Source: Ktedonobacterales bacterium | Lineage (GTDB): Bacteria; Chloroflexota; Ktedonobacteria; Ktedonobacterales; JADMIN01 | Direction of reading: 5' to 3' | NCBI GenBank assembly: GCA_030167145.1 | Contig: CP126532.1 | Span: 3,390,001 to 3,422,000, forward strand | Length of the DNA: 32,000 nucleotides | Shown here: positions 3,433 through 24,446 of the stretch, piece by piece | Layout of the letters: each line of letters starts with the position of its first letter | Position numbering within the stretch: position 1 is the stretch's first letter | Notes under the pieces: model-generated | What the model was told of the DNA's origin: nothing | Databases searched by the model: none | The model's input: the letters and a program-made list of their open reading frames with translations, nothing else | Position numbers and translations under genes: made by a program

Positions 3433-4998
3433 TTAGAAGCCTAACTGCCAGCGTATTGCCAAACGATTCCACTCCGAAAAAGTGTCTAGATTCCCCCTCG
3501 GTGGTCTGTCAATTGGCGGCCTGGAATTATCTGCCGTGATGGTTACATGAGGCAACGATTCAACGGGTGTCTCTCTAATCAGGTCATTCAGGAGCTTCAC
3601 GACTTCTTCAAAGAGCCTATCGACCAGTACTGCAGGCTGCACGAGACTCAGCCCTGAGCCAAGCGAGCGGACTCCCCAACTCCCTCGCCCGCCCATTGCA
3701 TCCATCGCCGAAAGAATCTTCACCTCCTCCTCTCCCGGCAAGCCGATGCGCGTCTCGGCTTTGCCATCTTGGAAGTACGTCACCCCCTGCAGGGCTGCTC
3801 CATGCACCGAGTTGCGCAGTAAGCGCAGTATCGTCAATGTATGCTCACCCGGCGCACCCGGATCCACTACGGCGGCGAGGGCTGGTGCTCGGGCTGCAAC
3901 GCGCTTGAGCCAATCTTCGAGTTGCCAGCCTGCACTGCGCTCGCCTCTAGACAAGGTGAGCACTTGGTGCGCGACGCGCGCAGCCACATCAACCGCTCCC
4001 ATGAGTGACACGAGTACGTTATCCAGGCAGCCGAGCGCCTCGTCAGAGGTGTCATTGTTTGTCGGCAGGTTCAGAGCGATGTGCACGTCGTCTCGTTCCT
4101 GCAGGGCTTTTGCCACACGGCTCAGCAGCGATCCGCTGAGCAGTGCGAGCTTGTCATTTCCCGTTCCCGATGCGTGTTGAACACACGCGCTGAACCACCG
4201 CCATGCTTCCGGCAGGAGTTCCCGAGCGCCTACCCAATAGTAGAGGCCTCGATTAAAGCGAAACCTGAAGTCTGGTACGCCAGCAGTGACACCAGTGGGC
4301 AAGACAAACTCGCGCTGCGCCCGCAAGTACAGCGCGATAAGTGGTATGGCCTCTTCGAGTGTACAAGCGGTCACGCCTGCCTTGGATACGAACGTACTCC
4401 CGCTGTGGAGGTAGGGACGTTCGGTGATAAACAAGTCGGCATTAACTGCTTGGTCAGCAACCTGGAGCGCCAGCATATCCATCTCGCGCTTCTCGGCTTG
4501 TTGTTCAGGATCAAGCTCCGTATATACCGGTTGAGACTTATCGTTCCTTGCGAGCTCGACCATGTTGCCTCGCACGCCGCCGACTGTATAGCTTTGTTCG
4601 GGCTTTGTGCTATACACGACCGGCCGATAGCGATAGCCGTTACTTTCCTCCAAAGGGTAGGCCACGGCCCATCCCGCATAGATCGGATGTAGTGGTTGGC
4701 GCGGTGAAAGGTCTACAGGTTGTATGTCAGTTGGAGGAAGCCCATCCGTATATCTGTACCATTCAACCACGTCGCTGCCGAGCAACGCCAAGAGCACGGT
4801 GGCTTTGTCCAGTTGCCCCCCAGACGCCTTGACCTCTATGAGTTCAACGTCTACGAGCACCCGCAGCTTACGGAGGGCCTTCCGCGCGGAAAATAAGGTT
4901 GGCACGTCGCTGGGGTTCTTAGGCCAGTCAGACTTAGATGGCCTACGGGTCACATTCTTGAAGTGTTTGATCATATTCGATGCCTGCTTTATGTTCAT
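3433..4998 (-). CDS. Hypothetical protein, 521 aa, no family recognised; last gene of the R-M-associated array
   Basis: Longest ORF here, with balanced composition; the overlapping frames are P/S/R-rich junk. The C-terminal half looks helical and contains LRLLRNSVHGAAL (R-x6-H or R-x3-H, only loosely HEPN-like). The start is uncertain: there is no clear SD before ATG 4998, and ATG 4974 is an alternative. Confidence 0.7.
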   Translation of the reverse strand: MNIKQASNMIKHFKNVTRRPSKSDWPKNPSDVPTLFSARKALRKLRVLVDVELIEVKASGGQLDKATVLLALLGSDVVEWYRYTDGLPPTDIQPVDLSPRQPLHPIYAGWAVAYPLEESNGYRYRPVVYSTKPEQSYTVGGVRGNMVELARNDKSQPVYTELDPEQQAEKREMDMLALQVADQAVNADLFITERPYLHSGSTFVSKAGVTACTLEEAIPLIALYLRAQREFVLPTGVTAGVPDFRFRFNRGLYYWVGARELLPEAWRWFSACVQHASGTGNDKLALLSGSLLSRVAKALQERDDVHIALNLPTNNDTSDEALGCLDNVLVSLMGAVDVAARVAHQVLTLSRGERSAGWQLEDWLKRVAARAPALAAVVDPGAPGEHTLTILRLLRNSVHGAALQGVTYFQDGKAETRIGLPGEEEVKILSAMDAMGGRGSWGVRSLGSGLSLVQPAVLVDRLFEEVVKLLNDLIRETPVESLPHVTITADNSRPPIDRPPRGNLDTFSEWNRLAIRWQLGF

Positions 4999-5037
4999 GG
5001 CGCCAGCGTATCATCTGTTTGGCCTTCCATGCGAAGG

Positions 5038-5373
5038 TCAGTTGCCAGGTGACACTGGCAGCTCTGTTGTGATCGGTGGACGGTCCAGGTAGGTGTCTTG
5101 GAGGGAGTCGTCCCAGATGGCGGCGTAGTGGCCAGCCTCGGCGTCGGTGCCGCGAATGAGGCGGTAGGACATGTTGCTGGCTTTGGCGGTTTGCTCGGCG
5201 GGAGCCTGCTTTGTCTGGACGATGGGGGCGTCTGTCTGGTGGCCAGCAGTGCTGGGAATGAGGAGGACCCACATCTGGCGCGGACGAGCTTCATCCCAGG
5301 TACGCCACAAGAAGTAGCGATAGGCGCCCATGAGGATGGCGCCGTTGTCGTGTAGCTGGTGCGTGAATACCAT
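5038..5373 (-). CDS. Small DUF1643-like protein (short or degenerate)
   Basis: 111-aa ORF. AYRYFLWRTWDE...MWVLLIPSTAGHQTDAPIV resembles the DUF1643 N-terminal signature (yRY.L.R.W... l.fi.lNPStAd...DpTi), and NMSYRLIRGTDAE weakly resembles the NLFA.RaTdP segment. It is shorter than typical family members, and the Asn of NPST is replaced (IPST). The competing ORF 4995-5393 has off-frame P/S/T composition. Confidence 0.45.
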   Translation of the reverse strand: MVFTHQLHDNGAILMGAYRYFLWRTWDEARPRQMWVLLIPSTAGHQTDAPIVQTKQAPAEQTAKASNMSYRLIRGTDAEAGHYAAIWDDSLQDTYLDRPPITTELPVSPGN

Positions 5374-5521
5374 GGTATAGGCCTTCGTTTCACAGGCTCC
5401 GTGTGTGTCAGATCATGTCACATGCGCCGAGGCGTAGGTGGTGCGGGCGCACCGCATCCGCATAAATCCGCAGCATGTGCGGCGGGCCGCACCGTGCGAG
5501 AAGCATCTCACAAGAGCGGGG

Positions 5522-8500
5522 TTAGCTGGCGAGGGTGGGGGAAGCGTAGGGGTGGTGGGTGGCGTCGGCGTAGGCGTCGTAGATGTGCTGGTAGAGGGCG
5601 TCGCATTTGGCGGCATAGGCGGTGGGGGTATAGGCGGCGGGAAGCTCGGTGTCGAGGACGGCGCGAATGGTGGTGAGGACGGCGGCGCGGGTGGCCTGGC
5701 GTTTCTTCCAGTCGAGGACGAGGTTCTGGTGTTTGAGGGTGGCGAGGAGGTCGCGGGCGGCGGTCTTGACCTGGTCGCGTTCTTTCTCGGTGAGGTGCGG
5801 GTCGGGGCGGGTGAGCAGATCGAAGATGGCGAGTTCTTCTTCGGTGAGGCGCTCGGCGGCGGCGCGCTGCTCTTCCGCAGTGAGGGAACGGGCGAGGGCG
5901 ACAAGTTGCTGGAAGAAGAGTTCGACGTTGAGGCTGCCGGTGTTGTAGTCGTCTATGAGGCGCTGGTAGGTGGCGAGATAGCTGGTGCGGCCACGGTTGA
6001 GGCGGACCATGCGGGCGAGGGTGGCGTTGATCTGGCTGCGGAGCTTTGCGGCTTCGGTGTGCTTGCGCGCGGTGGCGAACTGGGCCTGGAGCACGTCGAA
6101 GTCGAGCTGGCTGAGGTCTACGGGTTGGTGGGCGCTGGTGGTCGTACTGGCGCTGGGGTCGCCGTTGGCGTTGGTTGCGTCGGGCGCGCTGGTGACGGCG
6201 CGGATGAGGTAGCTGACGGGGAGGATGGAGGCGTCCAAGAGCTGGTTGAGGTCGTGCTTGAAGTCTTCGGGGAGCTTGCCGGTTTCTTCGATGGAGCGGA
6301 TCATGCGCGCGAGGACGGCGAAGAGGGCGACACGGGGCGCGAAGCGGTTTGCGGTGGGGTCGGGCAGGATGGCGCGGTAGAGTCCGGCGACGTGGGCGGC
6401 ATGGGCGAGGAAACGGCGCTTGGTGTCGTCGTTGGTGGTGAGGGCATCGAGGGCATCTTCAAGCAGGGCGATGCGCTGGAAGGGGTCAGTGGTGGCCTGG
6501 ATGGTGGCGGGGGTGACGCCGTGCTGCTGGCAGAAGGTGGTGGCGTCGTTGAGGGCAGCTTCGAGGGCTTCGACGAGTTGGTGCTTCTCCTGGATGGGGA
6601 GATCGCCAGCGGTGGTCGCGCCGCCGACACCTGCGCCATAGATGGCGAGCGCTTTTTGCAGGTTGCGGAAGATGCCGATGTAGTCCACGATGAGGCCGTT
6701 GGTTTTGTCGCCGAAGACGCGATTGGCGCGGGCGATGGTCTGCATGAGGGTGTGGTTGCGCTGGGGTTTATCGAGGTAGATGGTGGTGACGCTGGGGACA
6801 TCGAAGCCGGTCATCCACATAGCGCAGACGAAGACGAGGCGCAGCGGGTCGGCGGGGGCTTTGAACTTGGTTTCGAGGTCTTCGGTGACCATGCGGCGGC
6901 GGTGGGGTACGATGTCCGCGCCCTTCTTTTGCAGGTCGGTGACTTCGTTTTGCGAGGGGGAGACGACGACGGCCATATCGGTGGTTTCCATGTAGCGGAT
7001 GCGGGCGGCGAGGTCGTCGCGCTGGTCGGGCTGATCGGCTGGGATGAGGGGAAGCTGGGCGCGGAGGCGGTCGAGGTAGGCTTGCCAGGCGCGCTTGACG
7101 TGATCGTACATGCGTACAGCGGTGGCTTTATCTATGGAGACGACCATCGCTTTGCCGAGCTGGCCGCGCTGCATGAAGTGGGCGACGAGATCGTCGGCGA
7201 TGGTGGCGAGGCGTTCGCTGCGGGTGATGAGCTGGTATTCGCGGAGGAACTCGCGGTCGAGCTTCTGTTGCTGGGCGTCGTCGAGGTCGGCGGCTTCGAT
7301 GGCGTCGGCGATGTCGGTATCGAGGGCGGCGTTGGTGAGTTCGAGTTCGGGGATGCGGTTTTCGTAGTAGAGCGGTACGGTGGTGCCGTCTTCGACGCTC
7401 TGGCGGAAGTTGTAGACGCTGACGTAGTCGCCGAAGACCTGGCGGGTTTTCTCTTCGGTGGCGATGAGCGGGGTGCCGGTGAAGGCGAGGAAGGCGGCGC
7501 GCGGTAGGGCGTTCCGCATGTTGAGGGCGAGGGTGTCGTACTGGCTGCGGTGGGCTTCGTCGGTGATGACGATGAGATCGGAGCGGTCGGAGAGGGTGGG
7601 GTAGCGCGTGCCTGGCTCGGTGTGGAACTTTTGAATGAGGGTGAAGACGTAGCGATGGTCGGCGCGGAGCAGTTGCTGGAGGTGAGCGCCGCTGTTGGCG
7701 TGGACCTCCTTCTCTGGCTCGGTGACGGCGCCCGCGCTGGCAAAGGTTTTGTAGATCTGGTCGTCGAGTTCCTGGCGGTCGGTGACGATGAGGAAGGTCC
7801 AGTTGCCGGGGAGCTTGCGCAGCACCTTTTGGGCGAAGAAGACCATGGAAAGGCTTTTGCCGCTGCCCTGGGTGTGCCAGAAGACGCCGAGACGGCCCTG
7901 ATTCTCGCGGATGGAGCGGGTGGCGGCGAGGGCGTTGTTGACGCCGAGGTACTGGTGATTTTTGGCGAGCAGCTTGATGGTGGGGCCGGTGGCGTCGCTA
8001 AAGAGGGTGAAGTTTTCGATGTAGTCGAGCAGGCGGGTGGGGTCGCAGAGGCCACGCAGGGCGGTATCGAGGGAGACGATGCCCTGCTCGCCCTCCTCGG
8101 AACGGCTCGGAGGGGCTTCACCTCGCCTACGGCTCGGCTCGCCCTCGCTGGTGATGCGTTTCCACTCGAAGAAGTGTTCCCAGCCAGCGGTGAGGCTGCC
8201 GATGCGAGTCTCGCGGCCATTGGAGAGCAGGATGAGGGCGTTGTACCAGAAGAGGTGGGGGATACTGGTTTTGTAGTCGGTGAGGTTGTGGTCGTAGGCG
8301 TCTTGCAGGCGGCGATGGGCGGCTTTAAGTTCGATAAAGACGAGGGGAAGGCCGTTGACGAAGCCGAGCAGGTCGGGGCGGCGGTGGTAGATGTCGCCGT
8401 TGACGCGGAGTTGGGAGACGAGGAGCAGGTCGTTGTTGGCGGGGGTGGACCAGTCTATGACGGTGATACGCAGGTCTTGCCCTTCGGCGGCTTGGGGGCT

Positions 8501-8842
8501 GTCGCTGGCGCTGTTGGTGTCGGAGGTGCGGATGCGGACGGGGACGCCGTCTTTGAGGAGGCGGTAGACATCGTGGTTGGCGGCGACGGGGGTTTGGGTG
8601 GAGCGGTCGCGGGTGAGTTCGGCGATGGCGGCTGCGATGGCGGCGGCGGGCGCGGTGGGGTTGAGGCGCTGGAGGGCGGGACGGAGACGCTGGGTGAGGA
8701 CGACTTCGGCGCGGGTCTCGCGGCCAAGCGTGCCGGTGGGGCCGTAGGTTTCGTCGAAGGCGTTGAGGGTTTGCCAGCCGAGGGCGGCAAACAAGGCGAT
8801 GGCGGGCTGTTCGATGAGGGCGTCTTCGGAATAGGTGCGCAT
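5522..8842 (-). CDS. hsdR: Type I restriction enzyme, R (restriction/helicase) subunit
   Basis: N-terminus YSEDALIEQPAIALFAALGW is typical of HsdR_N. SF2 helicase motifs are present: WHTQGSGKSLSM (Walker A/motif I), VITDEAHRSQ (DEAH), FTGTP. The C-terminal LTEEELAIFDLLT is typical of the HsdR C-terminal helical domain. Start assigned to ATG 8842, preceded by AGGAG about 10 nt upstream; the ORF track's 8893 start adds an R/P-rich leader. Confidence 0.95.
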   Translation of the reverse strand: MRTYSEDALIEQPAIALFAALGWQTLNAFDETYGPTGTLGRETRAEVVLTQRLRPALQRLNPTAPAAAIAAAIAELTRDRSTQTPVAANHDVYRLLKDGVPVRIRTSDTNSASDSPQAAEGQDLRITVIDWSTPANNDLLLVSQLRVNGDIYHRRPDLLGFVNGLPLVFIELKAAHRRLQDAYDHNLTDYKTSIPHLFWYNALILLSNGRETRIGSLTAGWEHFFEWKRITSEGEPSRRRGEAPPSRSEEGEQGIVSLDTALRGLCDPTRLLDYIENFTLFSDATGPTIKLLAKNHQYLGVNNALAATRSIRENQGRLGVFWHTQGSGKSLSMVFFAQKVLRKLPGNWTFLIVTDRQELDDQIYKTFASAGAVTEPEKEVHANSGAHLQQLLRADHRYVFTLIQKFHTEPGTRYPTLSDRSDLIVITDEAHRSQYDTLALNMRNALPRAAFLAFTGTPLIATEEKTRQVFGDYVSVYNFRQSVEDGTTVPLYYENRIPELELTNAALDTDIADAIEAADLDDAQQQKLDREFLREYQLITRSERLATIADDLVAHFMQRGQLGKAMVVSIDKATAVRMYDHVKRAWQAYLDRLRAQLPLIPADQPDQRDDLAARIRYMETTDMAVVVSPSQNEVTDLQKKGADIVPHRRRMVTEDLETKFKAPADPLRLVFVCAMWMTGFDVPSVTTIYLDKPQRNHTLMQTIARANRVFGDKTNGLIVDYIGIFRNLQKALAIYGAGVGGATTAGDLPIQEKHQLVEALEAALNDATTFCQQHGVTPATIQATTDPFQRIALLEDALDALTTNDDTKRRFLAHAAHVAGLYRAILPDPTANRFAPRVALFAVLARMIRSIEETGKLPEDFKHDLNQLLDASILPVSYLIRAVTSAPDATNANGDPSASTTTSAHQPVDLSQLDFDVLQAQFATARKHTEAAKLRSQINATLARMVRLNRGRTSYLATYQRLIDDYNTGSLNVELFFQQLVALARSLTAEEQRAAAERLTEEELAIFDLLTRPDPHLTEKERDQVKTAARDLLATLKHQNLVLDWKKRQATRAAVLTTIRAVLDTELPAAYTPTAYAAKCDALYQHIYDAYADATHHPYASPTLAS

Positions 8843-8904
8843 GGTGGGTGGTCTCCTACGTGGCGGGAAGTTGAAAGTGCGCGACGGGCGCATGCCGTGC
8901 GCCC

Positions 8905-10011
8905 CTACGATGGCTGGTAGCCGGGAAACCCGCTTGTGCGGGGTGGGATGGTGACTGGGAACATGTCGGAGTGGGATTCGTGCGGAATGAGTTCGATGAC
9001 GATGAAATGGTCGTCTAGGTATTTCAGCAGGGATTCCAGGGTAGTTGCCCCCAACGCAAGCCCTGCCTCGGCCTCACCAACAATGCTCCACTCGATGGTG
9101 GGGTTATCGCTGCGGAGCCTGACACCTTGGATAGTTAGGTGAGAGTGCGCGCCGTTGGACTTTCTGACGACGGCAAAGGCTGAACGCTGGAGGTCGTCGC
9201 GGTGTAAGCAATGTTGCCGTATGGCATCGGGTGTCGGGGGTGTGAACTTCAGCAGTTTTAGAAGCGCATCCAGAAGGAGTCGCTGATCGTTCCCACGTGT
9301 CATGCTGAGGAACAGGGGGCGCTCGGATACAAGATCGGCGTGCAGCGATGGCCCTTTCTGTAGGGCAAGGCGGAGATAATGCAACGCGCTCTCTGGCTCC
9401 TTCTGGAGCGCGCGAATCTGAGCCATGTAATACTCAGGCTGGCCGGGGTCCTGTGAGTCGCTCGCTTCCAATGCACGCTGCGCCCAATATCCAGCTCGCG
9501 CAAGTGATTTTTCACGTGTCGGGGGCCAACTTACAGCAACATTGATGTGCGCAGCTGCCATCAGTACAGCAGCATTAGGTAAATCGGGGACTTCTTCAAG
9601 GATGCGCTCGATTTCCGGTTCTTTGACATCGAGCGGCGCGGGCCAAAGCAACGTGAACTCTCCCATTGCGCGGATGCGCTTGTGCAGGTCTTTGGTGAGG
9701 TCAGTTTTGATGACATCGAGCTTCTGCGCCACCACCTGCTCCACGCGCTGATCGAGCCGGAACCACTGGAAGGCGACGACGATAGCGCCGAGGATGGCAA
9801 GCATGGCGGCCATGATGCCCGCAATGGTGGCCGCGAAACCGGCAACAGACCACGGATCGCCGCGAAGGGGAAGTACGAGTACGAGCATGAGGGTGACAAT
9901 CAACAGGACGATGACGACGGCGATTGCGACGACGAAGGTAATCGCAAGGGACCGTGACGACTTTTGACCGAGCATCGTGCTACTCTCGACTTTCACTCTC
10001 CGGTGTTTCAC
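8905..10011 (-). CDS. Hypothetical 2-TM membrane protein with helical (TPR-like?) and C-terminal soluble domains, embedded between hsdS and hsdR
   Basis: Two strong hydrophobic helices: LAITFVVAIAVVIVLLIVTLMLVLVL and VAGFAATIAGIMAAMLAILGAIVVAF. The soluble region has repeat-like helices (YWAQRALEASD..., YYMAQIRALQKEPESALHYLRLALQKG). Co-directional and tightly packed with its neighbours. Alternative start at ATG 9975, 4 nt after the upstream stop. Confidence 0.7.
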   Translation of the reverse strand: MKHRRVKVESSTMLGQKSSRSLAITFVVAIAVVIVLLIVTLMLVLVLPLRGDPWSVAGFAATIAGIMAAMLAILGAIVVAFQWFRLDQRVEQVVAQKLDVIKTDLTKDLHKRIRAMGEFTLLWPAPLDVKEPEIERILEEVPDLPNAAVLMAAAHINVAVSWPPTREKSLARAGYWAQRALEASDSQDPGQPEYYMAQIRALQKEPESALHYLRLALQKGPSLHADLVSERPLFLSMTRGNDQRLLLDALLKLLKFTPPTPDAIRQHCLHRDDLQRSAFAVVRKSNGAHSHLTIQGVRLRSDNPTIEWSIVGEAEAGLALGATTLESLLKYLDDHFIVIELIPHESHSDMFPVTIPPRTSGFPGYQPS

Positions 10012-11026
10012 CAGTTGGGTCGGGCGCTGCGGCAGATGGGGTTAGCTCTTGCACCAAGTGCTGCCCCATCAGGCTTAGGATTTGGGCAAGGCGGGTTATT
10101 TCGTCAGGTGTGAGGGATATTTTGTGGCCGACGATGGCCTGCGGGTCGTTGGCGCGCTTCACGTAGTCCTCGTCAATCACGCCTGCCTTGTGAGCGAGTA
10201 GATGGCGTTTCTGGAAGCAGCGGCAGGCAAACTGCCAGTCGTCGGGGGGTGTAGAGGCTGCGAGGTCAAGGTTGAAGAACTGCTGCACGCGCTTTTGCGC
10301 GCCTGGGAGGTTCTGGAAGGAGAGATTTTCGACCTTGTCGGGAGATGTTGCCTGGGCGGCATGGATGCGGCAGGTTTCGCGCCCGAAGGCGTCGAACGCG
10401 GATACTTGAGCCTGAAGAGCATTTGCAATGAGTTGTGCGGCGAGATTGGGATCAAAATCGGAGTCAACCTGTGCAGCGGACGCTGCTATTTTCTCGGCTA
10501 CTTCGAGGTTCTTCTGTAGGATTTGGAATGAGTTGTGGATACCGCAGTCGGGACAATACGCGAAGACGCCGTAGATGGCATAGCGCAGGGTGCAGTTCGC
10601 GCAGATGACATGAGTTTCAAGCTGCTCCTCCAGGTAGTGGAGGATGGGCGGTGGTGTGGTTTCAATCTTCAGACTCAAGCCGATTCCGAACGGGCCAGTA
10701 GGTGGCATGTCGAATTCATACGGTTTCAGTTGGTCTGCGAGATAGTTTGTAACCTCGCCCTCAAAAATGGACAGGACATACGCGCGTTGGTCGGGTGTTA
10801 AAAATCTGTCCGCTTCCGCGGCATGGCCGCAATAGGGACAGTAGCTCTGCGCGACAGCTGGGAGGCCGGTACCAAAGGTGACCTTAAAATAGCGCTGGCA
10901 TGCAGGATCAGGGCATTGGCGACCAGTGTAGCCGTTTTCGTCGGTCGGTAGTGTGATCCGCATTTGGAAACGGGTAGCATCTTCATCTTCGTCGGTGACG
11001 GTTTCGGCTCTATCGTCATCGTTCAT
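9980..11026 (-). CDS. Double zinc-ribbon protein with a C-terminal HEPN-like helical domain (R-x4-H), embedded between hsdS and hsdR
   Basis: Two CxxC...CxxC ribbons: CPDPAC...CPYCGH and CANC...CPDCG. The C-terminal helical region contains CFQKRHLLAHKAGVIDEDYV, i.e. RHLLAH, which fits the HEPN R-x4-H motif with a polar residue after R. The ORF starts 3 nt after the hsdS stop. GC is about 50% by hand count, versus about 70% in hsdR. Confidence 0.7.
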   Translation of the reverse strand: MNDDDRAETVTDEDEDATRFQMRITLPTDENGYTGRQCPDPACQRYFKVTFGTGLPAVAQSYCPYCGHAAEADRFLTPDQRAYVLSIFEGEVTNYLADQLKPYEFDMPPTGPFGIGLSLKIETTPPPILHYLEEQLETHVICANCTLRYAIYGVFAYCPDCGIHNSFQILQKNLEVAEKIAASAAQVDSDFDPNLAAQLIANALQAQVSAFDAFGRETCRIHAAQATSPDKVENLSFQNLPGAQKRVQQFFNLDLAASTPPDDWQFACRCFQKRHLLAHKAGVIDEDYVKRANDPQAIVGHKISLTPDEITRLAQILSLMGQHLVQELTPSAAAPDPTGETPESESRE

Positions 11027-11029
11027 GGG

Positions 11030-12379
11030 TTAGTCTCCTATCTCGATTGCGATGTGCTCCACGTCTAGCTCGCCGGAGATGAGCTTGGGCAAGAGGAGGT
11101 CGCGGGTGCGGCGGAGGGTGTCGCAAGTATCAGCTAGATTGGACGATGTCAGATCCGAAAAAGTGCTCATCGCCAATGCCCGCAACGACTTGTCATTGGG
11201 AAGTGCTAGGTATTCGGACTGGACAAACCTGGTTGCTTGAAAGTTGCCGATGCCGTTTGTAGCGACATTTTGATAGAACGCCATTCGACCTTCATCATGT
11301 AGGTACTTCAAGTGTAAATGCATGAGCGGCCCCATTTGTGGTTCCTTGGGGCGAAACAATTTGCAGAAACTCGCGCAAATTACGTCGCCTCCTAGCCTGC
11401 GAAGAATGCCAGAGGTGATAAGAAGGCTCTTCCCGATAGTTCGGCTATTGGCATTGACTGAGTTTTCCACGATCAGGTCGCCGGGCCTGAGTGTACGCGC
11501 TTTGAGGCTGCGTTCACTAATGAAGCGAACGGGTGCTCGTGAGTGATTTCCAAGACGAATATCATCGAAGTCTGTACCTCTAATTACCGTTACTGGCCGT
11601 GTATCCTCCGCCGTTGGATCACCACTCCCCCAGTCACCTCCAAGCGTCAAGTCTAGCAGGTCGGCGTAGGTGGCCATCTGCCAGCCGGAGGGGATGGGGC
11701 CGAATGGGCTGTCAGTCATCTCATACGCTGCGTGGCCGGGAAAGCGGAAATGGACGAACCATTCGCGGTAGAGGGTGCGGGCGAGGTCTTCGAGGAGGGC
11801 GATACGGCGGGTGTTGTTTTCGATGAGGTCGTCGTATGCAGAGAGGATGGCGGCGATTTTGCGCTGGATGGGGAGGGGCGGGAATCGCACCTGTGCGCTC
11901 TTAAGAGTAGTAAGTGGACTTGAAATTGCTGGAACACCAGAGCCTCCAGCATGGCTCAGAAGCTCGTGCTGACCGAATTCGGATCGGAAATAGTAGTACA
12001 GAAACGCGGGCAAGACCTTTGATTCATCGCAGGTGAGTTTCATTTGGCTTTGGGATACTACGTAGCGACTGAATTGTCCTCTAGGAATCAGCCCCACCTG
12101 GCCCAGAGTACCTCGGTGTGTAAACACTAGATCATCTGGGTAGGCATTGCTCGCCCTCAGTTCGTCTGCCTTCTCTTCTGAGATATAGACCAAGTCGTCG
12201 TGGCTAAATCTGTCGCCAGCGATGTTTGTACCGCGAATTACGGGTACTCCGAACGGAATGAAGTTGTCCTTTGTTATCCGTGAGCCGAACGGCCCCATAG
12301 CGAGGGCGTGTTTCACATTTGCGGCAATTTCGGCGACTTCTACGGATTTCCATATGGCCGTCGTGGCAGTCGTAGCCAT
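11030..12379 (-). CDS. hsdS: Type I restriction-modification specificity subunit
   Basis: Two target-recognition halves are separated by the conserved central helix LPPLPIQRKIAAILSAYDDLIENNTRRIALLEDLARTLYREWFVHFRFPGH. The terminal helix is LRRTRDLLLPKLISGELDV. Start set at ATG 12379, which overlaps the upstream stop (TGATG) and follows GGAGGTG. Confidence 0.9.
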   Translation of the reverse strand: MATTATTAIWKSVEVAEIAANVKHALAMGPFGSRITKDNFIPFGVPVIRGTNIAGDRFSHDDLVYISEEKADELRASNAYPDDLVFTHRGTLGQVGLIPRGQFSRYVVSQSQMKLTCDESKVLPAFLYYYFRSEFGQHELLSHAGGSGVPAISSPLTTLKSAQVRFPPLPIQRKIAAILSAYDDLIENNTRRIALLEDLARTLYREWFVHFRFPGHAAYEMTDSPFGPIPSGWQMATYADLLDLTLGGDWGSGDPTAEDTRPVTVIRGTDFDDIRLGNHSRAPVRFISERSLKARTLRPGDLIVENSVNANSRTIGKSLLITSGILRRLGGDVICASFCKLFRPKEPQMGPLMHLHLKYLHDEGRMAFYQNVATNGIGNFQATRFVQSEYLALPNDKSLRALAMSTFSDLTSSNLADTCDTLRRTRDLLLPKLISGELDVEHIAIEIGD

Positions 12380-12960
12380 CACTTCACCTCCGACGGGGTC
12401 GCAAGCTCGCGGCGGCACAGGTCTGCAAGATAGAAAATGGCTTTCATTACCTCGGTTACGGTGGTAATGAGATAGAACTCCATCAAAGAAAACAGAACTG
12501 GGTCAGCATGCCACACCTGATAGATTCGCGCTTTGGCCTCATCGGAATGTATGATCTCGCCGTAAAAGAAGACATCGGCTACTTCGCGGTGTGTGTATGC
12601 TTTCCCGTCCACGATAACGGGGATTGGTTCATCGAAGAGAAAATCCACTGTCTGGTTTACATCTCGAAATTCACTTTTCCAAGTCTCGGAGATGTCAGGG
12701 CTGATAAGGAGCGCGGACATGGCGCTGAAGGATACTAGCTCCTTCTTTAGGAAGAACTGCCGAAACGTCGCTCCGGCCGCTATGATCGCCTCGGGGTCTG
12801 GTCCCGTGTGGTGGGCGTAGACTCCTTCATCCATACTCATGCGCACGGAATACTCAACTCCGCCCTGCTCTACTATGCGCTTGGCGAAACTTAGATTCCG
12901 TAGCTTGTCGGCTTTCTCGACAAATTGCTCTAGCCGCTTTCTGGTGCGATCATCCATCAT
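12379..12960 (-). CDS. Hypothetical protein (~193 aa), translationally coupled to hsdS
   Basis: ORF with normal composition and GC of about 47% (one 60-nt hand count). GGAGGTGGA lies immediately before tandem ATGs at 12960 and 12957. Its stop overlaps the hsdS start. No recognisable family. Confidence 0.65.
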   Translation of the reverse strand: MMDDRTRKRLEQFVEKADKLRNLSFAKRIVEQGGVEYSVRMSMDEGVYAHHTGPDPEAIIAAGATFRQFFLKKELVSFSAMSALLISPDISETWKSEFRDVNQTVDFLFDEPIPVIVDGKAYTHREVADVFFYGEIIHSDEAKARIYQVWHADPVLFSLMEFYLITTVTEVMKAIFYLADLCRRELATPSEVK

Positions 12961-13013
12961 TCCACCTCCGGTAGCACGGTACTGGCGAATTCTGTGGTTC
13001 ACGGGTTATGTGC

Positions 13014-13373
13014 TCAACTCATTTGCTTGAGGTCAATACATAGGGCGATGCCGTCGGCGAGGGCGTCTACGTCTGCTTGTGAGAGCGCGCCGACTTTGGC
13101 CACCAACCGCTCGATAGCGACGCAGCGAACTTGCAGCACGTTGCCACACGAGTCATGGGTGAGACCATTGGACAGGTCGGGCTGGAGCGGGACCATAAAG
13201 GACCACGCGGCAAACTTGGGTTGCCACGTGGTGATCGGGACAATGATCCGTAACCGTTGACTATCAAAGGCGGGCGAGCTGATAACGGCGGCAGGGCGGC
13301 GCTTTCGCATTTCCGCGCCGCGTGTTGGGTCCAGGTCCACGGTCCAGATTTCGCCGCGTGTTGGACTACTCAT
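13014..13373 (-). CDS. mazF: MazF/PemK-family type II toxin (endoribonuclease)
   Basis: The N-terminus RGEIWTVDLDPTRGAEMRKRRPAAVISS is the classic PemK/MazF signature. Size (119 aa) is typical. The ATG overlaps the upstream gene by 8 nt. Confidence 0.9.
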   Translation of the reverse strand: MSSPTRGEIWTVDLDPTRGAEMRKRRPAAVISSPAFDSQRLRIIVPITTWQPKFAAWSFMVPLQPDLSNGLTHDSCGNVLQVRCVAIERLVAKVGALSQADVDALADGIALCIDLKQMS

Positions 13374-14577
13374 CCGTGTATTCCCACTCCTCCCAATCGT
13401 CGCTATCCAGCGCGTTAAATTCGGTCAGTTCAGGATTGGTGCGGTACTCTTCGGCGGCTGCTTCGGCTGCTTCGGCGAGGATGCGATGGCGTTCCTCACG
13501 GGGCATGCGCAGCAGGTCGCGGGCGGTGTAGGTGCGCCCGGCGGGCTGGGCGGCGGGTTGGGGTGTGAGGCAGCCGGGGCAGAGTTGGAGGGCGCGTTCC
13601 TCGGTGATGATGCCTTCGGCGAAGGCGCGGAGGGTCATCTGTTTGAGGCGGGTTGGCTCTTCGGGCGCTTCGCATGCCACCGGTTCGCGAACGGTGGCCT
13701 CGCGTGCAACGAATTCGGCGCGCAAGCGGTCGTACTGCCCGCGGTCAATGACATCTAGCTCCAGTGCGCGGTGAGTCCAGGCTTGCATGCTGAGGCCGTA
13801 TTTGCATTTGAGCATGCCCAACTCGTCGAAGCTGAGGTGGCGGCGGCGGTCGCCTAGCTCGCGGCGCGCGACCTCAGCGGGGACAAGGAATGCGCCGGCA
13901 AACCGGTTCGCCAGCGCTTCATCGTCGCCATTTTCGGGTTCAGTGGACGGCGACAGGATGTGTTTCAATTCGTGAGCGAGGCTAAATCGGCGGCGATCTG
14001 GGGCGGTGCTCGTGTTGACGACGATGAACGGCGCGCGCTGATTGATCCACGCGGCGAGACCGTCAAAGCGGCCCTCGTCTTGGTCCCAGCCGACAATGAC
14101 GCCGCCGTGATCTTCGATGGTCTGGGTCACACTTTCGATGGGAGCGGTGCCGAGACCCCACGCGCGGCGAAGATCCAGCGCCGCTGCTTCGGCCTCGTCG
14201 AATGTGCTGATGTTCAGGGCGGGTACTCGTGGCTGGTCGTTGGAGTACAGAATGGATTGGAGCCAGCACTGACCTTCGGCGACATTGAGCGCGGCCGCCT
14301 TGATCTGCTCCTGACGCGCGGGCGCAAGCTGCGCATGCTTGCGGAAGGCCAGCCACTGAACGGTCAACTCTGGCTCCGCGAGGAAATAGGACGAGGGAAC
14401 GGTCAGCACGCGCGCCAGCTTCAACAGGAGCGATGCGCTGGGAGTGCTGCCGTTATGTTCGTACTTGGAAAGTCCCTGCTTGGTGATGGCCTGGCCTAAC
14501 TCGCCCAGGCGTTGCGCGACCTCGTCGAGGGTTAGCCCTGCCGCCAGGCGGGCCTGACGCATGCGGTTACCGATCAT
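13366..14577 (-). CDS. XRE-family HTH + ImmA/IrrE (M78, COG2856) zinc-metallopeptidase fusion with an acidic Trp-rich C-terminal tail; putative MazF antitoxin/regulator
   Basis: HTH: IGNRMRQARLAAGLTLDEVAQRLGELGQAITKQGLSKYEHNGSTPSASLLLKLARVLTV. HExxH: SLAHELKHIL, followed by ANRFAGAFLVPAE. The tail TNPELTEFNALDSDDWEEWEYTDE resembles the MazE C-terminus ([21 protein letters not shown]). Start at ATG 14577, with GGAGGA 7 nt upstream. Confidence 0.85.
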   Translation of the reverse strand: MIGNRMRQARLAAGLTLDEVAQRLGELGQAITKQGLSKYEHNGSTPSASLLLKLARVLTVPSSYFLAEPELTVQWLAFRKHAQLAPARQEQIKAAALNVAEGQCWLQSILYSNDQPRVPALNISTFDEAEAAALDLRRAWGLGTAPIESVTQTIEDHGGVIVGWDQDEGRFDGLAAWINQRAPFIVVNTSTAPDRRRFSLAHELKHILSPSTEPENGDDEALANRFAGAFLVPAEVARRELGDRRRHLSFDELGMLKCKYGLSMQAWTHRALELDVIDRGQYDRLRAEFVAREATVREPVACEAPEEPTRLKQMTLRAFAEGIITEERALQLCPGCLTPQPAAQPAGRTYTARDLLRMPREERHRILAEAAEAAAEEYRTNPELTEFNALDSDDWEEWEYTDE

Positions 14578-14624
14578 GGCTGTTTCCTCCCCCGCTGTTG
14601 ACGAAAATAGCGATATAGTATGTG

Positions 14625-14640
14625 TTGTCCATGTGGACAA
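14625..14640. promoter_or_regulatory. Perfect palindrome TTGTCCA-tg-TGGACAA upstream of the XRE-ImmA/mazF pair; candidate operator
   Basis: 7-bp inverted repeat with a 2-nt spacer, 48 nt upstream of the XRE-ImmA start, in the 104-nt hsdM-XRE gap. On the minus strand a TTGACA hexamer (complement of 14661-14666) and TA-rich -10-like hexamers (tactatat) flank it. Confidence 0.5.
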
Positions 14641-14681
14641 GTTACCATGTTTTCCACAAGTTGTCAACATCAAGGGCGCAT

Positions 14682-16244
14682 TCATTCTGCTTCCAGGAGG
14701 GCGGCGACGTTGGCGGAGATGCGGTCTTCGAGGGTGTGGGCCTCGGCGTTGAGACGTTCGAGTTCTTCGTGTAGCTCTTCGAGGCGCTCGCGGAAGTCGA
14801 AGTCATCGGGGGCGCGCTCGGCGACGCCGACATAGCGGCCGGGGTTGAGGCTCCAGCCCTGGGCGGCGATCTGGGCGCGGGTGGCGACACGGCAGAGGCC
14901 GGGGACATCGCGGTAGACGCCATCGGGGAACTGCGCGGCGAGGAGGGCGGCGCTGTCGTGGGCGTTCTCGACGGGTTCGCCGCGATAGAGGCGGACAATG
15001 TTGGCGAGGTATTCGATCTGCTGGGGGGTGAACTCGCGGTGGGCGCGGTCGAGCTGGTGGAAGATGTGGCGGGCGTCGAGGAAGAGGACGGTATCGCCGC
15101 GCGGGGTGGAGCGTTTGGCTTTATCGAAGAACCAGAGGGTGCAGGGGAGGGTGACGGTGTAGAAGAAGTTGGGGCCGACGGAGACCATGACATCTACGAC
15201 GCCATCTTCGATGAGCTTCTGGCGGATGACCTGCTCGGAGGCGCGGGCATCGCTGGCGGAGTTGGCCATGACGAACCCGGCGCGGCCCTGGGGATTGAGG
15301 GCGCTATAGAATTCCTGAATCCACAGGTAGTTGGCGTTATCCACGCGGGGCATTCCGAAGGGGTAGCGGGCGTGGTCGCCCTTGATCTTCTCTTTGTCCA
15401 CGCCGTCGGCGTTGAAGGGGGGATTGGCCATGACGAACTCGAAGCGACCGACGCAGTTGTGGACGTTCTGGTAGTAGGTGTTGGCCTCTTTGATGTCGCC
15501 GGAGAGGCCATGCACGGCCAGGTTCATTTTGCAGAGGCGGATGGTCTCGCGGGTCTTTTCTTGGCCGTAGAGCGAGATGGTGTTGGTGGGGTTCTGCTGG
15601 TGATTGCGGACGAAGCGGGCGCTCTGGACGAACATACCGCCGGAGCCACAGGCGGGGTCCAGAATGCGGCCATGGAACGGCTCGATGACCTCGACGATGA
15701 GCTTGACGATGGGGGTGGGGGTGAAGAACTCGCCGCCGCGCTGGCCTTCGAGCTTGGCGAACTCGCTGAGGAAGTATTCGTAGATTTTGCCGAAGACATC
15801 GCCTTCCAGGTCCATGGGAATCGCGGAGAAGATTTTGAGCAGCGCCCAGAGCGTGTCTTTTTCGAGGCGGTTGTAGGATTTGGGGAGGGTGTCTTTGAGG
15901 TCGGGGTTCTCGGCCTCGATGGCGTGCATGGCAGCGGTAACGGCTTTGGCGATGTCGTCGCCTTCGGGCAGGCGCAGGAGGGTGGAGTAGCGGGCGGCTT
16001 CGGGAACGTACATGACGCCGCGCGCCTGGTAGTCGGCTTTATCTATGGTGCGGCGGCTATTGGGTGGGAGGGAGGCGGCGAGTTCGGCCTGGGCGTGGGT
16101 GAACTTGTGGTCGGCGAAGCGCAGGAAGATGAGGCCGAGGACGGGGACGGAGTATTCGGAGGCGCGGAGGCCGGAGTTGGTGCGGAGTTGGTCGGCGGAG
16201 TCCCAGAGTTTGGATTCGAGGGCGGCGTGGTTGTTGGCGGGCAT
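14682..16244 (-). CDS. hsdM: Type I restriction-modification DNA methyltransferase subunit (N6-adenine)
   Basis: HsdM_N-type N-terminus [36 protein letters not shown]. AdoMet motif [12 protein letters not shown]. Catalytic NPPF in [10 protein letters not shown]. Confidence 0.95.
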
Positions 16245-22233: not shown

Positions 22234-22494
22234 GGCGGGTGTCCTTTCGGGTGGTGAAGTGCTGTGGTGATGAAGTCGGTTGTACGTGTTCGGTGAAGAG
22301 CGATCACGCTGGGCGATCACGCTGGGTGGTGACGAGTTGCGTGCAGATGCGTCGCGGCCACTGTGGCCTGGGGGATGGGGGATGAGGGATGGGGGATGGG
22401 CGTCCATATGCGGACACGAACGCATCTACGTGATGCACTACAGATTGGTATACGGCAGGAGACGTGGTGAATCGGAAAGGCGTGCAGAGATGCG

Positions 22495-24315: not shown

Positions 24316-24446
24316 GGTCGGCGCTCGCTTCTCTTCTGTGCGGTGTGTGCGGTCTGTGTAAATATGATACATCCGTGCCATCCTTTCGGTAAACGGTACT
24401 ATCGTGTCAATTTCGCGTCTTGTTTACGACGAAGTGTAGCACATAC

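What the first reader, a model, noticed from the sequence alone, without database searches (positions are those of the whole stretch)
3433..16244. Type I R-M operon with accessory genes inserted at every junction: a composite defence locus
All genes from 16244 down to 3433 are on the minus strand and tightly packed. The order is hsdM, XRE-ImmA fusion, mazF, unknown ~193 aa, hsdS, Zn-ribbon/HEPN-like, 2-TM protein, hsdR, DUF1643-like, unknown 521 aa. Junctions are short or overlapping. TGATG is shared at 12379, there is an 8-nt overlap at 13366-13373, and a 3-nt gap at 11027-11029. The Zn-ribbon stop and the 2-TM gene start either overlap or sit 4 nt apart. Canonical Type I loci are hsdM-hsdS-hsdR; here seven extra ORFs are interleaved. 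Single insertions are known (E. coli prrC, rloC, Abi genes), but a locus with occupants at all three junctions suggests a multi-layer system. In such a system R-M activity would be backed by toxin or abortive-infection modules.
Basis: partly seen in the sequence, partly recalled or inferred. Interest (0 to 1): 0.75.

Follow-up and report, generated by a model that had tools for sequence, protein, structure and literature searches.

The report
Restriction operon with nested defence genes
An intact Type I restriction-modification operon in a Ktedonobacterales (Chloroflexota) chromosome carries a toxin-antitoxin pair, a zinc-ribbon protein that is probably an RNase, and a membrane protein nested between its three core genes; this layout is common and already described, so the locus is a good new example rather than a new kind of system.

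Summary
Ten co-directional minus-strand genes lie at the stated coordinates, and every quoted junction checks out. hsdM, hsdS and hsdR are full length.

- **Between hsdM and hsdS:** a RosmerTA-type antitoxin (XRE HTH plus M78 Zn-peptidase, HExxH intact) overlaps a MazF toxin gene by 8 nt. An ORFan with no homologue anywhere follows.
- **After hsdS:** a double Zn-ribbon protein with an invariant Rx4H motif lies 3 nt downstream. Its family is large (at least 2000 clusters, bacteria and archaea). In 30 of 65 informative genomes it sits downstream of hsdS on the same strand, abutting it in 20. This is the position prrC holds in the E. coli prr locus.
- **Next gene:** the 2-TM protein belongs to a rare family that elsewhere sits beside Mrr and inside a Type III-like R-M operon.
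- **Downstream of hsdR:** the "DUF1643" gene is a fragment, and the 521-aa gene shows no R-M linkage (1 of 80 loci).

Having both internal junctions occupied is not unusual: 15 of 24 complete related loci show it, carrying Abi, HEPN-MNT, SIR2-HerA, Thoeris-like and other genes. Multi-layer R-M/HEPN/toxin loci and "guilt by embedding" are already published. Verdict: a composite defence locus and a new member of a known kind. Functional cooperation between the layers is untested.

The parts
14682..16244 (-). hsdM, Type I R-M methyltransferase subunit (520 aa), intact
   Evidence: Pfam N6_Mtase 1.6e-80 plus HsdM_N 3.9e-19; PADLOC MTase_I 1e-221. GC3 is 0.86.
14625..14667 (-). Candidate internal promoter/operator in the 104-nt hsdM/XRE gap. 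TTGACA (14667-14662), 17 nt, TAACTT (14644-14639), overlapped by the perfect palindrome TTGTCCA-N2-TGGACAA (14640-14625).
   Evidence: Read directly from the sequence; palindrome confirmed. The scan tool's nearby hit TGGACA-16-TATTTT (14631-14604) is no more than chance would give. The function is inferred.
13366..14577 (-). RmrA-like antitoxin/regulator: XRE HTH plus M78 (ImmA/IrrE) Zn-peptidase with HExxH, and a lineage-specific ~60-aa C-terminal extension ending in an acidic Trp-rich tail (DSDDWEEWEYTDE). The ORF is open up to 14685.
   Evidence: Pfam HTH_3 1.3e-11 and Peptidase_M78 2.9e-12. PADLOC RmrA 1.5e-44 (14 RmrA models hit). NCBIfam spr1629 antitoxin 7e-27, below its cutoff. Alignment, invariant H-E-x-x-H and start position; SD GGAGG before the 14577 ATG.
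13014..13373 (-). MazF/PemK-family endoribonuclease toxin (119 aa); its start overlaps the XRE-M78 stop by 8 nt
   Evidence: Pfam PemK_toxin 1.3e-22, full length; PHROG MazF-like 9e-20; overlap.
12379..12957 (-). ORFan of ~192 aa (ORF open to 13002). Its stop shares one base with the hsdS start. Function unknown.
   Evidence: No hit in Pfam, PADLOC, NCBIfam, PHROGs or PDB sequences, and only itself among 5.8 billion proteins. Codon-position GC pattern and SD GGAGGTG support a real gene.
11030..12379 (-). hsdS, Type I specificity subunit with two TRDs (ORF open to 12418)
   Evidence: PADLOC Specificity_I 1e-61, with full-length matches (residues 23-455 of a 446-position profile); Pfam Methylase_S 1.2e-13. 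SD before the 12379 ATG; GC3 0.59.
9980..11026 (-). Double Zn-ribbon plus HEPN-like protein (348 aa), 3 nt after hsdS; predicted latent RNase effector in the prrC position
   Evidence: Invariant C38/C43/C63/C66 and C142/C145/C158/C161, and invariant K273-R274-H275...H279. PADLOC PDC-M14A 6e-16 on residues 20-164, matched by 26 of 26 family members. AF2 pLDDT 81.7 with an all-alpha C-terminal half. Weak fold similarity to HepT/HEPN toxins, TM 0.45-0.56 normalised to the target, not significant. Synteny.
8905..9975 (-). 2-TM protein (356 aa from the ATG at 9975; ORF open to 10011) with a helical, weakly TPR-like cytoplasmic domain; rare family
   Evidence: Hydropathy analysis. NCBIfam TPR_END_plus 1.5e-4, below cutoff. 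An exhaustive HMMER search gave 73 hits, 21 of them at E<=1e-10. Of three homologue contexts, one is beside Mrr, one is inside a methylase-HicAB-ResIII operon and one is near a resolvase only.
5522..8842 (-). hsdR, Type I restriction subunit, intact (ORF open to 8893)
   Evidence: TIGR00348 2.5e-140; Pfam HSDR_N, SWI2_SNF2, T1R_D3-like and T1RH-like_C; PADLOC REase_I 2e-170. GC3 is 0.86.
5038..5373 (-). DUF1643 fragment (111 aa), probably a gene remnant; not part of the system
   Evidence: Matches only Pfam DUF1643 profile positions 1-38 of 134 and PHROG 3230 positions 17-55 of 167. It lies 148 nt after hsdR.
3433..4998 (-). Uncharacterised 521-aa protein; a neighbour, not linked to R-M
   Evidence: 168 homologues and no Pfam match. 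Only 1 of 80 metagenome loci has hsdR within 8 kb, and there is no conserved neighbour. AF2 pTM 0.89 with no PDB fold match.

Best explanation
This is a functional-looking Type I R-M operon (hsdM, hsdS and hsdR all intact) that serves as a scaffold for three nested, co-directional accessory units.

1. A RosmerTA-type toxin-antitoxin module. An XRE-HTH/M78 Zn-peptidase protein is the repressor and antitoxin. A MazF endoribonuclease is the toxin. The module probably has its own promoter and palindromic operator in the hsdM/XRE gap. An ORFan of unknown role follows it.

2. A double Zn-ribbon/HEPN-like protein that is translationally coupled to hsdS. By analogy with PrrC in the EcoprrI locus, it is inferred to be a latent RNase. 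In that model it is held silent while the R-M complex is healthy, and it is unleashed as a second, abortive line of defence when a phage disables or overwhelms restriction.

3. A 2-TM protein from a rare family that is also associated with R-M genes elsewhere. It may be a membrane effector or a sensor.

Shown here: gene identities, gene integrity, the junctions, and synteny across phyla. Inferred: RNase activity, latency, and any cross-talk with the Hsd proteins. The DUF1643 remnant and the 521-aa gene downstream of hsdR are neighbours and not components.
For: - **Core genes.** The Hsd profile matches are full length and strong.
- **TA module.** The XRE-M78 protein hits 14 PADLOC RmrA models (best 1.5e-44) and keeps HExxH. 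It overlaps mazF by 8 nt, and no MazE-like ORF is present. A palindrome next to a perfect -35 hexamer lies in the upstream gap. RosmerTA is defined as an HTH/Zn-peptidase antitoxin paired with variable toxins (10.1101/2022.05.11.491447; PMC10440598).
- **Zn-ribbon/HEPN-like family, linkage to Type I R-M.** Among 80 species-level loci, hsdM was found in 36, hsdS in 33 and hsdR in 28. Of 65 loci with at least 3 kb of upstream sequence, 30 have hsdS upstream on the same strand and 20 have it within 60 nt, many with a -4 to +2 nt junction.
- **Zn-ribbon/HEPN-like family, other defence contexts.** In loci without hsd genes it neighbours CBASS, MmeI/Eco57I-type methylases, SNF2+NOV_C helicases, BrxL, AbiEii and integrases. 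It is directly adjacent to an RmrA-like gene in 4 loci, one with a 4-nt overlap, as expected of a toxin.
- **Zn-ribbon/HEPN-like family, sequence conservation.** The Rx4H motif is invariant. The protein is more conserved across these loci (median 48% identity) than the linked HsdM (38%), HsdR (32%) or HsdS (27%).
- **Related loci.** They carry known defence or toxin genes at the same junctions. At M-S: YhcG, HEPN-MNT, Abi_2, RhuM, Fic. At S-R: SIR2+HerA, AAA_15/21, TIR/ThsB, ThsA.
- **2-TM protein.** One homologue lies beside Mrr and another inside a Type III-like R-M operon.
- **Composition.** GC3 is mosaic: hsdM and hsdR 0.86, the inserts and hsdS about 0.6-0.75. This fits modular acquisition.
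Against: - The HEPN fold is not statistically established. Foldseek gave a best E of 0.29, and HepT hits have E>1. hhalign against an NTase_sub_bind HEPN alignment gave P=0.21. No Pfam HEPN family matched even at E<=10.
- There is no evidence here for physical or regulatory coupling to the Hsd proteins.
- About half of the family's members are not next to Type I genes. The R-M system therefore cannot be an obligatory partner.
- MazF is not a known RmrA partner. None of 80 viral RmrA-like loci had a MazF by tblastn, and Makarova 2009 lists RelE and PIN as partners of Xre-COG2856 (PMC2701414).
- Promoter and terminator scans are at chance level. The hairpin after hsdR is not significant (z = -1.66).
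- The ORFan's role is unknown.
Confidence: 0.7

Rival explanations
1. Insertion hot spot with no cooperation. The gaps in a Type I operon simply tolerate and accumulate selfish or independent cassettes, such as an addiction TA module, orphan genes and stand-alone Abi genes. Each cassette acts on its own or merely stabilises the locus, and there is no mechanistic link to restriction.
For: The inserts at the M-S and S-R junctions differ almost completely between related loci. The 2-TM, MazF and ORFan genes have no homologue in any of the 80 related loci. GC3 is mosaic. The TA module appears to have its own promoter and operator. The Zn-ribbon gene also occurs without hsd genes.
Against: The Zn-ribbon gene keeps a fixed position and is translationally coupled to hsdS across phyla. 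That is more than random accumulation would produce. It is also more conserved than the Hsd subunits. PrrC sets a precedent for real coupling in this same position (PMC3710099).
Confidence: 0.3
2. The Zn-ribbon protein is not a toxin. It is an accessory subunit or regulator of this lineage of Type I enzymes, for example an assembly factor, a controller of restriction alleviation, or a DNA- or modification-sensing factor.
For: It has 3-nt or overlapping junctions with hsdS in many phyla. It is highly conserved. No cognate antitoxin is evident in most loci. The HEPN assignment is not significant.
Against: 35 of the 65 informative loci lack an upstream hsdS, and in those the gene sits among CBASS, Type IIG, BREX-like or mobile genes. 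It pairs directly with RmrA-like antitoxin genes in 4 loci. The invariant R-x4-H and neighbouring polar residues look catalytic. Its N-terminal domain matches a PADLOC defence candidate that was found by embedding.
Confidence: 0.12
3. The hsd operon has been disrupted by the insertions and is decaying, so the cluster is a relic and not a working system.
For: A DUF1643 remnant lies just downstream. The composition of hsdS differs from that of hsdM and hsdR.
Against: All three hsd genes are full length with complete domain sets and their own Shine-Dalgarno sequences. The same interleaved layout recurs in 24 complete loci.
Confidence: 0.04

Closest known systems
PrrC anticodon nuclease in the E. 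coli prr (EcoprrI, Type Ic) locus
   Same: A gene nested between hsdS and hsdR on the same strand. Its C-terminal domain carries an Rx4-6H (HEPN) motif. The proposed role is a latent RNase that backs up restriction (PMC3710099).
   Different: PrrC has an N-terminal ABC-ATPase domain, whereas this protein has two Zn ribbons and no NTPase. There is no sequence similarity. Masking by the R-M complex is shown for PrrC and only inferred here. About half of this family's members occur without Type I genes.
RosmerTA (RmrT/RmrA) toxin-antitoxin defence system
   Same: The antitoxin has an XRE HTH plus an ImmA/M78 Zn-peptidase domain with HExxH. It strongly matches PADLOC RmrA models, and its gene is adjacent to and overlaps a toxin gene (PMC10440598).
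   Different: The toxin here is a MazF/PemK RNase and not one of the described RmrT folds. The antitoxin has an extra acidic, Trp-rich C-terminal tail. The module is nested in an hsd operon. Neither neutralisation nor defence has been tested.
PADLOC phage defence candidate PDC-M14 (from 'guilt by embedding', Payne et al. 2024)
   Same: The PDC-M14A profile (152 positions) matches the N-terminal double Zn-ribbon domain of all 26 family members tested. PDCs were derived from genes embedded in BREX, DISARM or Type I R-M systems.
   Different: The match covers the N-terminal half only. The C-terminal HEPN-like half matches no PADLOC model. The nature of component B of PDC-M14 could not be examined.
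HEC-08 (DUF3644 HEPN plus Zn-finger-like domains, embedded in Hma; Payne et al. 2024) and the EC042_2821 HEPN clade
   Same: A HEPN-type Rx4-6H effector combined with Zn-ribbon-like domains and embedded in a restriction-like system. Mutating the histidine abolishes HEC-08 defence.
   Different: The domain order is reversed: HEPN is N-terminal in HEC-08. No sequence match to DUF3644 was detected. The host system is different.
TgvAB, embedded in the Vibrio cholerae VPI-2 Type I R-M cluster (PMC11411939)
   Same: An independent defence module nested in an active Type I operon, with complementary activity demonstrated.
   Different: TgvAB is a GmrSD-like Type IV DNA restriction system. It is not an RNase or TA module.

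Membership tests
Type I restriction-modification system | HsdM with an N6-adenine MTase domain and the HsdM N-terminal domain | tested here: met
   N6_Mtase 1.6e-80, HsdM_N 3.9e-19, PADLOC MTase_I 1e-221.
Type I restriction-modification system | HsdS with two target-recognition domains | tested here: met
   PADLOC Specificity_I full-length alignments (residues 23-455). Pfam Methylase_S passes on only one TRD.
Type I restriction-modification system | HsdR with an N-terminal nuclease, an SF2 motor and a C-terminal domain | tested here: met
   HSDR_N 7e-42, SWI2_SNF2 9e-75, T1RH-like_C 1e-35, TIGR00348 2.5e-140, above its cutoff.
Type I restriction-modification system | Methylation of a bipartite motif and ATP-dependent restriction | not testable with these tools
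   Needs methylome data or restriction assays.
RosmerTA | RmrA: HTH plus Zn-peptidase (HExxH) antitoxin | tested here: met
   PADLOC RmrA 1.5e-44; HTH_3 and Peptidase_M78; invariant H202-E203-x-x-H206.
RosmerTA | An adjacent toxin gene (RmrT) in the same operon | tested here: met
   mazF overlaps the antitoxin stop by 8 nt. The toxin is a PemK/MazF fold and not a described RmrT, so this is a partner-swap variant.
RosmerTA | Toxicity neutralised by RmrA; anti-phage activity | not testable with these tools
   Experimental.
MazEF type II TA | MazF/PemK toxin domain | tested here: met
   PemK_toxin 1.3e-22, profile positions 2-107 of 109.
MazEF type II TA | A small MazE/PemI (AbrB or RHH) antitoxin gene immediately upstream | tested here: not met
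   The upstream gene is the 403-aa XRE-M78 protein, and there is no small ORF between them. Makarova 2009 lists AbrB, RHH and XF1863 as MazF partners, not COG2856 (PMC2701414).
HEPN superfamily | Conserved Rx4-6H motif | tested here: met
   R274-H-L-L-A-H279 is invariant in 26 diverse homologues.
HEPN superfamily | All-alpha HEPN helical-bundle fold | tested here: inconclusive
   The C-terminal half is all-alpha in the AF2 model. HepT/HEPN chains (6m6u, 5yep, 8yuf, 2hsb) appear with TM 0.44-0.56 normalised to the target, but with E>1. hhalign against an NTase_sub_bind alignment aligns the motifs, with P=0.21. No Pfam HEPN hit at E<=10.
HEPN superfamily | Metal-independent endoRNase activity | not testable with these tools
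   Biochemistry needed.
PrrC/RloC anticodon nucleases | N-terminal ABC-ATPase regulatory domain | tested here: not met
   The N-terminal half consists of two Zn ribbons, with no P-loop or ABC match.
PrrC/RloC anticodon nucleases | Gene embedded between hsdS and hsdR of a Type I system (PrrC) | tested here: met
   True in the window and in the related loci.
PADLOC PDC-M14 | Component A | tested here: met
   PDC-M14A 6.2e-16, protein residues 20-164 on profile positions 4-150 of 152; matched by 26 of 26 homologues.
PADLOC PDC-M14 | The other component(s) adjacent | tested here: not met
   No other PDC-M14 model matched any of the ten proteins.
DUF1643 | A full DUF1643 domain (134 positions) | tested here: not met
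   Only profile positions 1-38 align, so this is a fragment.

The most novel reading that the evidence does not exclude
The double Zn-ribbon/HEPN-like protein would be a widespread, ATPase-independent functional analogue of PrrC, found in bacteria and archaea. In this reading it is a guard RNase that docks on the HsdS/HsdM core of one lineage of Type I enzymes through its Zn-ribbon domain, and it fires when a phage inactivates the enzyme. In other genomes the same effector would be re-wired to RmrA-like protease antitoxins or to other restriction systems. In this locus, the RmrA-like protein could control both MazF (through its MazE-like acidic Trp-rich tail) and the HEPN-like effector. That would make a three-layer, cross-regulated system.
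Probability: 0.25. Interest if true: 0.6.

Novelty: new member of a known kind. Interest (0 to 1): 0.38.

Why it matters
The locus is a clear example of an established principle: R-M operons act as scaffolds for second-line abortive or toxin modules. This example comes from a poorly studied phylum.

Its main practical value is one well-defined candidate. This is an uncharacterised family with no Pfam match (at least 2000 clusters). It is more conserved than the Hsd subunits it travels with. It sits downstream of hsdS in 30 of 65 informative genomes, abutting it in 20, and current defence catalogues cover only its N-terminal half. Testing it would show whether PrrC-style guarding of Type I enzymes is general and whether it can work without an NTPase sensor.

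The RmrA-like/MazF pairing would add a classical RNase toxin to the RosmerTA partner repertoire.

Tried and rejected
- **Structure searches.** Foldseek of the Zn-ribbon/HEPN-like model against PDB and BFVD gave no informative significant hit. PDB had only weak HEPN hits. The one significant BFVD hit was an uncharacterised siphovirus protein, E 1.8e-4. The 521-aa model is confident (pTM 0.89) but has no PDB match.
- **Sequence and profile searches for HEPN.** hmmsearch of the family profile against PDB sequences gave nothing meaningful. Pfam at E<=10 on all 26 members returned only Zn-ribbon families. hhalign against a 4-sequence HEPN (NTase_sub_bind) alignment gave P=0.21.
- **ORFan (12379-12957).** No hit in any library or in the 5.8-billion-protein search. 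The public name "Exonuclease SbcC" is unsupported.
- **Conserved partner for the Zn-ribbon gene.** The downstream neighbours do not form a family: 59 of 76 neighbour sequences are singletons, and the window's 2-TM protein matches none of them. A fixed two-gene "Zn-ribbon + 2-TM" system is therefore rejected.
- **Close relatives of the XRE-M78 gene in metagenomes.** None found. A search for MazF beside RmrA-like genes in 80 viral contigs also found none.
- **R-M linkage of the 521-aa gene.** Rejected: 1 of 80 loci, and no conserved neighbour.
- **Promoter and terminator scans and RNA folding after hsdR.** Not above chance.
- **Rfam.** Only tRNA-Sec, far from the locus.
- **One lookup failed.** P0198 is not on record.

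Full report
**Observation.**

The window comes from a Ktedonobacterales (Chloroflexota) MAG chromosome: the Zn-ribbon protein is 100% identical to OJF49_003251 on a 5.07-Mb contig. From 16244 down to 3433, ten ORFs lie on the minus strand.

I recomputed the junctions.
- The ORFan stop and the hsdS ATG share one base at 12379.
- XRE-M78 and mazF overlap by 8 nt (13366-13373).
- hsdS and the Zn-ribbon gene are 3 nt apart (11027-11029).
- The Zn-ribbon gene and the 2-TM gene are 4 nt apart when the ATG at 9975 is used. Public gene calls use that start.

Every gene is preceded by a Shine-Dalgarno-like motif. These motifs, together with an alignment to homologues, put the true starts at 14577 (XRE-M78), 12957 (ORFan), 12379 (hsdS), 9975 (2-TM) and 8842 (hsdR).
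- The "DUF1643-like" ORF matches only positions 1-38 of a 134-position profile, so it is a remnant.
- There is a 104-nt gap between hsdM and XRE-M78.
- Only five of the extra genes are interleaved. The other two lie downstream of hsdR, after a 148-nt gap.

The flanks are ordinary chromosomal genes: an MCP, a pentapeptide-repeat protein, an ELFV dehydrogenase, a sigma factor and an MMPL protein.

**The core.**

HsdM, HsdS and HsdR are full length and carry complete domain sets. Nothing suggests decay.

**Insert 1, between hsdM and hsdS.**

The 403-aa protein has an XRE HTH and an M78 (ImmA/IrrE) domain with an intact HExxH. It hits 14 PADLOC RmrA models (best 1.5e-44). RmrA is the antitoxin of RosmerTA, a defence TA family defined by an HTH/Zn-peptidase antitoxin paired with variable toxins (10.1101/2022.05.11.491447; PMC10440598).

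The gene that overlaps its stop encodes a full-length PemK/MazF toxin (1.3e-22). No MazE-like ORF is present. Xre-COG2856 fusions have long been known to pair with RelE and PIN toxins (PMC2701414). MazF is not a listed partner, and none of 80 RmrA-like loci from viral contigs had a MazF by tblastn. This therefore looks like a partner swap within a known architecture.

Two details come directly from the sequence.
- The protein has a lineage-specific ~60-aa C-terminal extension ending in DSDDWEEWEYTDE. From my own knowledge, this resembles the acidic, Trp-containing tails with which MazE/PemI-type antitoxins occupy the MazF groove. That is a lead and was not tested.
- The 104-nt gap contains TTGACA-17-TAACTT, overlapped by the perfect palindrome TTGTCCA-N2-TGGACAA. 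This would suit an autoregulated internal promoter. The generic promoter scan is at chance level.

The next ORF (~192 aa) has no homologue in any library or among 5.8 billion proteins. Its codon-position GC pattern and Shine-Dalgarno motif suggest a real gene. Its role is unknown.

**Insert 2, after hsdS.**

The 348-aa protein has two invariant CxxC...CxxC Zn ribbons and an invariant K-R-H-L-L-A-H motif (R274-x4-H279) in an all-alpha C-terminal half.

It is about 50% identical across Planctomycetota, Acidobacteriota, Proteobacteria, Chloroflexota and Methanoperedens, and it has no Pfam domain. PADLOC's PDC-M14A model covers only the N-terminal Zn-ribbon domain, and it does so in all 26 members tested. 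PDC models were derived from genes embedded in BREX, DISARM or Type I R-M systems (10.1101/2024.01.29.577857).

I fetched 80 species-level loci and searched them with the window's proteins.
- hsdM was found in 36 loci, hsdS in 33 and hsdR in 28.
- Of 65 loci with at least 3 kb of upstream sequence, 30 have hsdS upstream on the same strand.
- In 20 of those 65 it abuts the Zn-ribbon gene (60 nt or less), many with junctions of -4 to +2 nt.

The order is always hsdM ... hsdS-ZnR ... hsdR, which is the position prrC holds in the E. coli prr locus (PMC3710099). The protein is also more conserved across these loci (median 48% identity) than the linked HsdM (38%), HsdR (32%) or HsdS (27%).

Where no hsd genes are nearby, its neighbours are CBASS genes (SMODS, SAVED, Cap4), MmeI/Eco57I-type methylases, SNF2+NOV_C helicases, BrxL, AbiEii, integrases and a TrwC relaxase. 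In four loci the gene directly next to it is RmrA-like, once with a 4-nt overlap. That is what one expects of a toxin or effector.

The HEPN assignment itself is only partly supported. The motif is invariant. Foldseek lists HepT/HEPN toxins with a TM of 0.44-0.56 normalised to the target, but at E>1. hhalign against a HEPN (NTase_sub_bind) alignment superposes KRHLLAH on RNLLSH with P=0.21. Pfam finds nothing beyond Zn ribbons.

**Insert 3.**

The 2-TM protein belongs to a rare family: 73 hits in an exhaustive search of 1.84 billion representatives, 21 of them at E<=1e-10. It has no homologue in any of the 80 Zn-ribbon loci, so a fixed "Zn-ribbon + 2-TM" pair is rejected.

I looked up three homologue contexts.
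- One lies directly downstream of an Mrr Type IV enzyme.
- One lies between a partial upstream ORF that I read as methylase-like (inspected by eye, not profile-searched) and HicAB plus a ResIII/RE_endonuc gene.
- One lies near a resolvase.

**Downstream genes.**

The 521-aa family has 168 homologues, mainly from Actinobacteria and soil metagenomes. It has no conserved neighbour. It lies within 8 kb of an hsdR in only 1 of 80 loci. It is a neighbour and not a component. Its AlphaFold model is confident (pTM 0.89) but matches nothing in the PDB.

**Is occupancy of every junction unusual?**

It is not. Among 24 related loci that contain hsdM, hsdS, the Zn-ribbon gene and hsdR in order, 16 have an insert between hsdM and hsdS, 21 have one between the Zn-ribbon gene and hsdR, and 15 have both.
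- The M-S inserts include YhcG/DUF1016 nucleases, HEPN-MNT pairs, Abi_2, ORF6N, RhuM and Fic.
- The S-R inserts include SIR2+HerA, AAA_15/AAA_21 ATPases, TIR/ThsB, ThsA and MqsA.

The Methanoperedens locus L004 shares 70% HsdM identity and 58% HsdR identity with the window. Its layout is also parallel: three genes, then hsdS and the Zn-ribbon gene, then three more genes.

In the window, GC3 is 0.86 for hsdM and hsdR but 0.59-0.75 for hsdS and the inserts. This fits modular exchange.

**Comparison with what is known.**

Anantharaman et al. 2013 reported at least 16 HEPN clades linked to R-M systems. They proposed PrrC-like multi-pronged defence, including three-level loci that combine R-M, HEPN and Doc (PMC3710099). 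Payne et al. 2024 showed that Type I R-M, BREX, DISARM and Hma systems frequently carry embedded, co-oriented genes (96.7% in the same orientation). They used this "guilt by embedding" to validate new defences, including a HEPN/Zn-finger protein, HEC-08 (10.1101/2024.01.29.577857). TgvAB is a validated system embedded in a Type I operon (PMC11411939).

**Mechanism (best estimate).**

The Type I enzyme restricts unmethylated DNA.

The RmrA-like/MazF pair is an autoregulated TA module that halts translation by mRNA cleavage when the antitoxin is lost or triggered.

The Zn-ribbon/HEPN-like protein is a latent RNase that acts as a second, abortive line of defence. It is co-translated with HsdS and may be masked by the methylase core.

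The 2-TM protein is an independent, R-M-associated membrane effector or sensor.

The gene identities and the synteny are shown. Every activity, and any cross-talk between the layers, is inferred.

**Verdict.**

This is a real, intact composite defence locus and a new member of a known kind. Its most useful product is a well-defined, widespread and uncharacterised candidate effector in the prrC position.

Noticed in passing
window 3433-4998 (-): The 521-aa protein gives a confident AlphaFold model (pLDDT 87.8, pTM 0.89) but has no PDB fold match and no Pfam, PADLOC or PHROG hit. R395-N396-x-x-H399-G400 is invariant in 31 homologues. The family occurs mostly in Actinobacteria and soil metagenomes, next to variable, mostly unannotated genes (a few transposases, KwaB, a KAP NTPase, HNH).
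   Followed up: partly
window 5522-16244: The composition is mosaic. hsdM and hsdR have GC3 0.86 and a C-rich coding strand. hsdS, the Zn-ribbon gene, the 2-TM gene and the ORFan have GC3 of about 0.6, and XRE-M78 has 0.75. The hsdS/Zn-ribbon block may have a different history from hsdM and hsdR.
   Followed up: partly
L001-L080 compared with window 9980-11026: The Zn-ribbon/HEPN-like protein is more conserved across phyla (median 48% identity) than the HsdM (38%), HsdR (32%) and HsdS (27%) proteins encoded beside it.
   Followed up: yes
L014:1456-3569, L020:9971-12232, L032:472-3032, L074:8397-10906: In four genomes the Zn-ribbon/HEPN-like gene is directly adjacent to an RmrA-like XRE-M78 gene, in either order and once with a 4-nt overlap. 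It may therefore serve as a RosmerTA-type toxin in those genomes.
   Followed up: partly
L004 (Candidatus Methanoperedens sp. BLZ2): This archaeal locus has HsdM 70% and HsdR 58% identical to the window's proteins. Its layout is the same: hsdM, three genes, hsdS, the Zn-ribbon gene, three genes (including an MqsA-like antitoxin), then hsdR. This suggests cross-domain transfer of the scaffold.
   Followed up: partly
window 14625-14667 (-): A perfect 16-bp palindrome, TTGTCCA-CA-TGGACAA, overlaps a TTGACA-17-TAACTT promoter-like site in the hsdM/XRE gap. A related half-site, TTGTGGAAAA, lies 10 nt upstream.
   Followed up: partly
window 12379-12957 (-): The public annotation names this ORFan 'Exonuclease SbcC'. 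No library or homology search supports that name.
   Followed up: yes
L091:359-4542: A homologue of the 2-TM protein sits between a partial upstream ORF that I read as methylase-like (by eye, not profile-searched) and a HicAB pair followed by a ResIII/RE_endonuc gene. This would be another R-M operon with nested TA and membrane-protein genes.
   Followed up: partly
window 28521-28617 (-): A tRNA-Sec gene, found by both ARAGORN and Rfam (66.6 bits).
   Followed up: no
window 21400-26200: This stretch has very high GC (up to 0.68) and strong GC skew (up to 0.48). Its minus-strand ORFs are rich in Pro, Thr and Ser and have no Pfam match. One of them (23653-24381) has an HTH-like N-terminus.
   Followed up: no
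window 18439-20325 (-): A 628-aa ORF between the ELFV dehydrogenase gene and the sigma-factor gene has no Pfam match.
   Followed up: no
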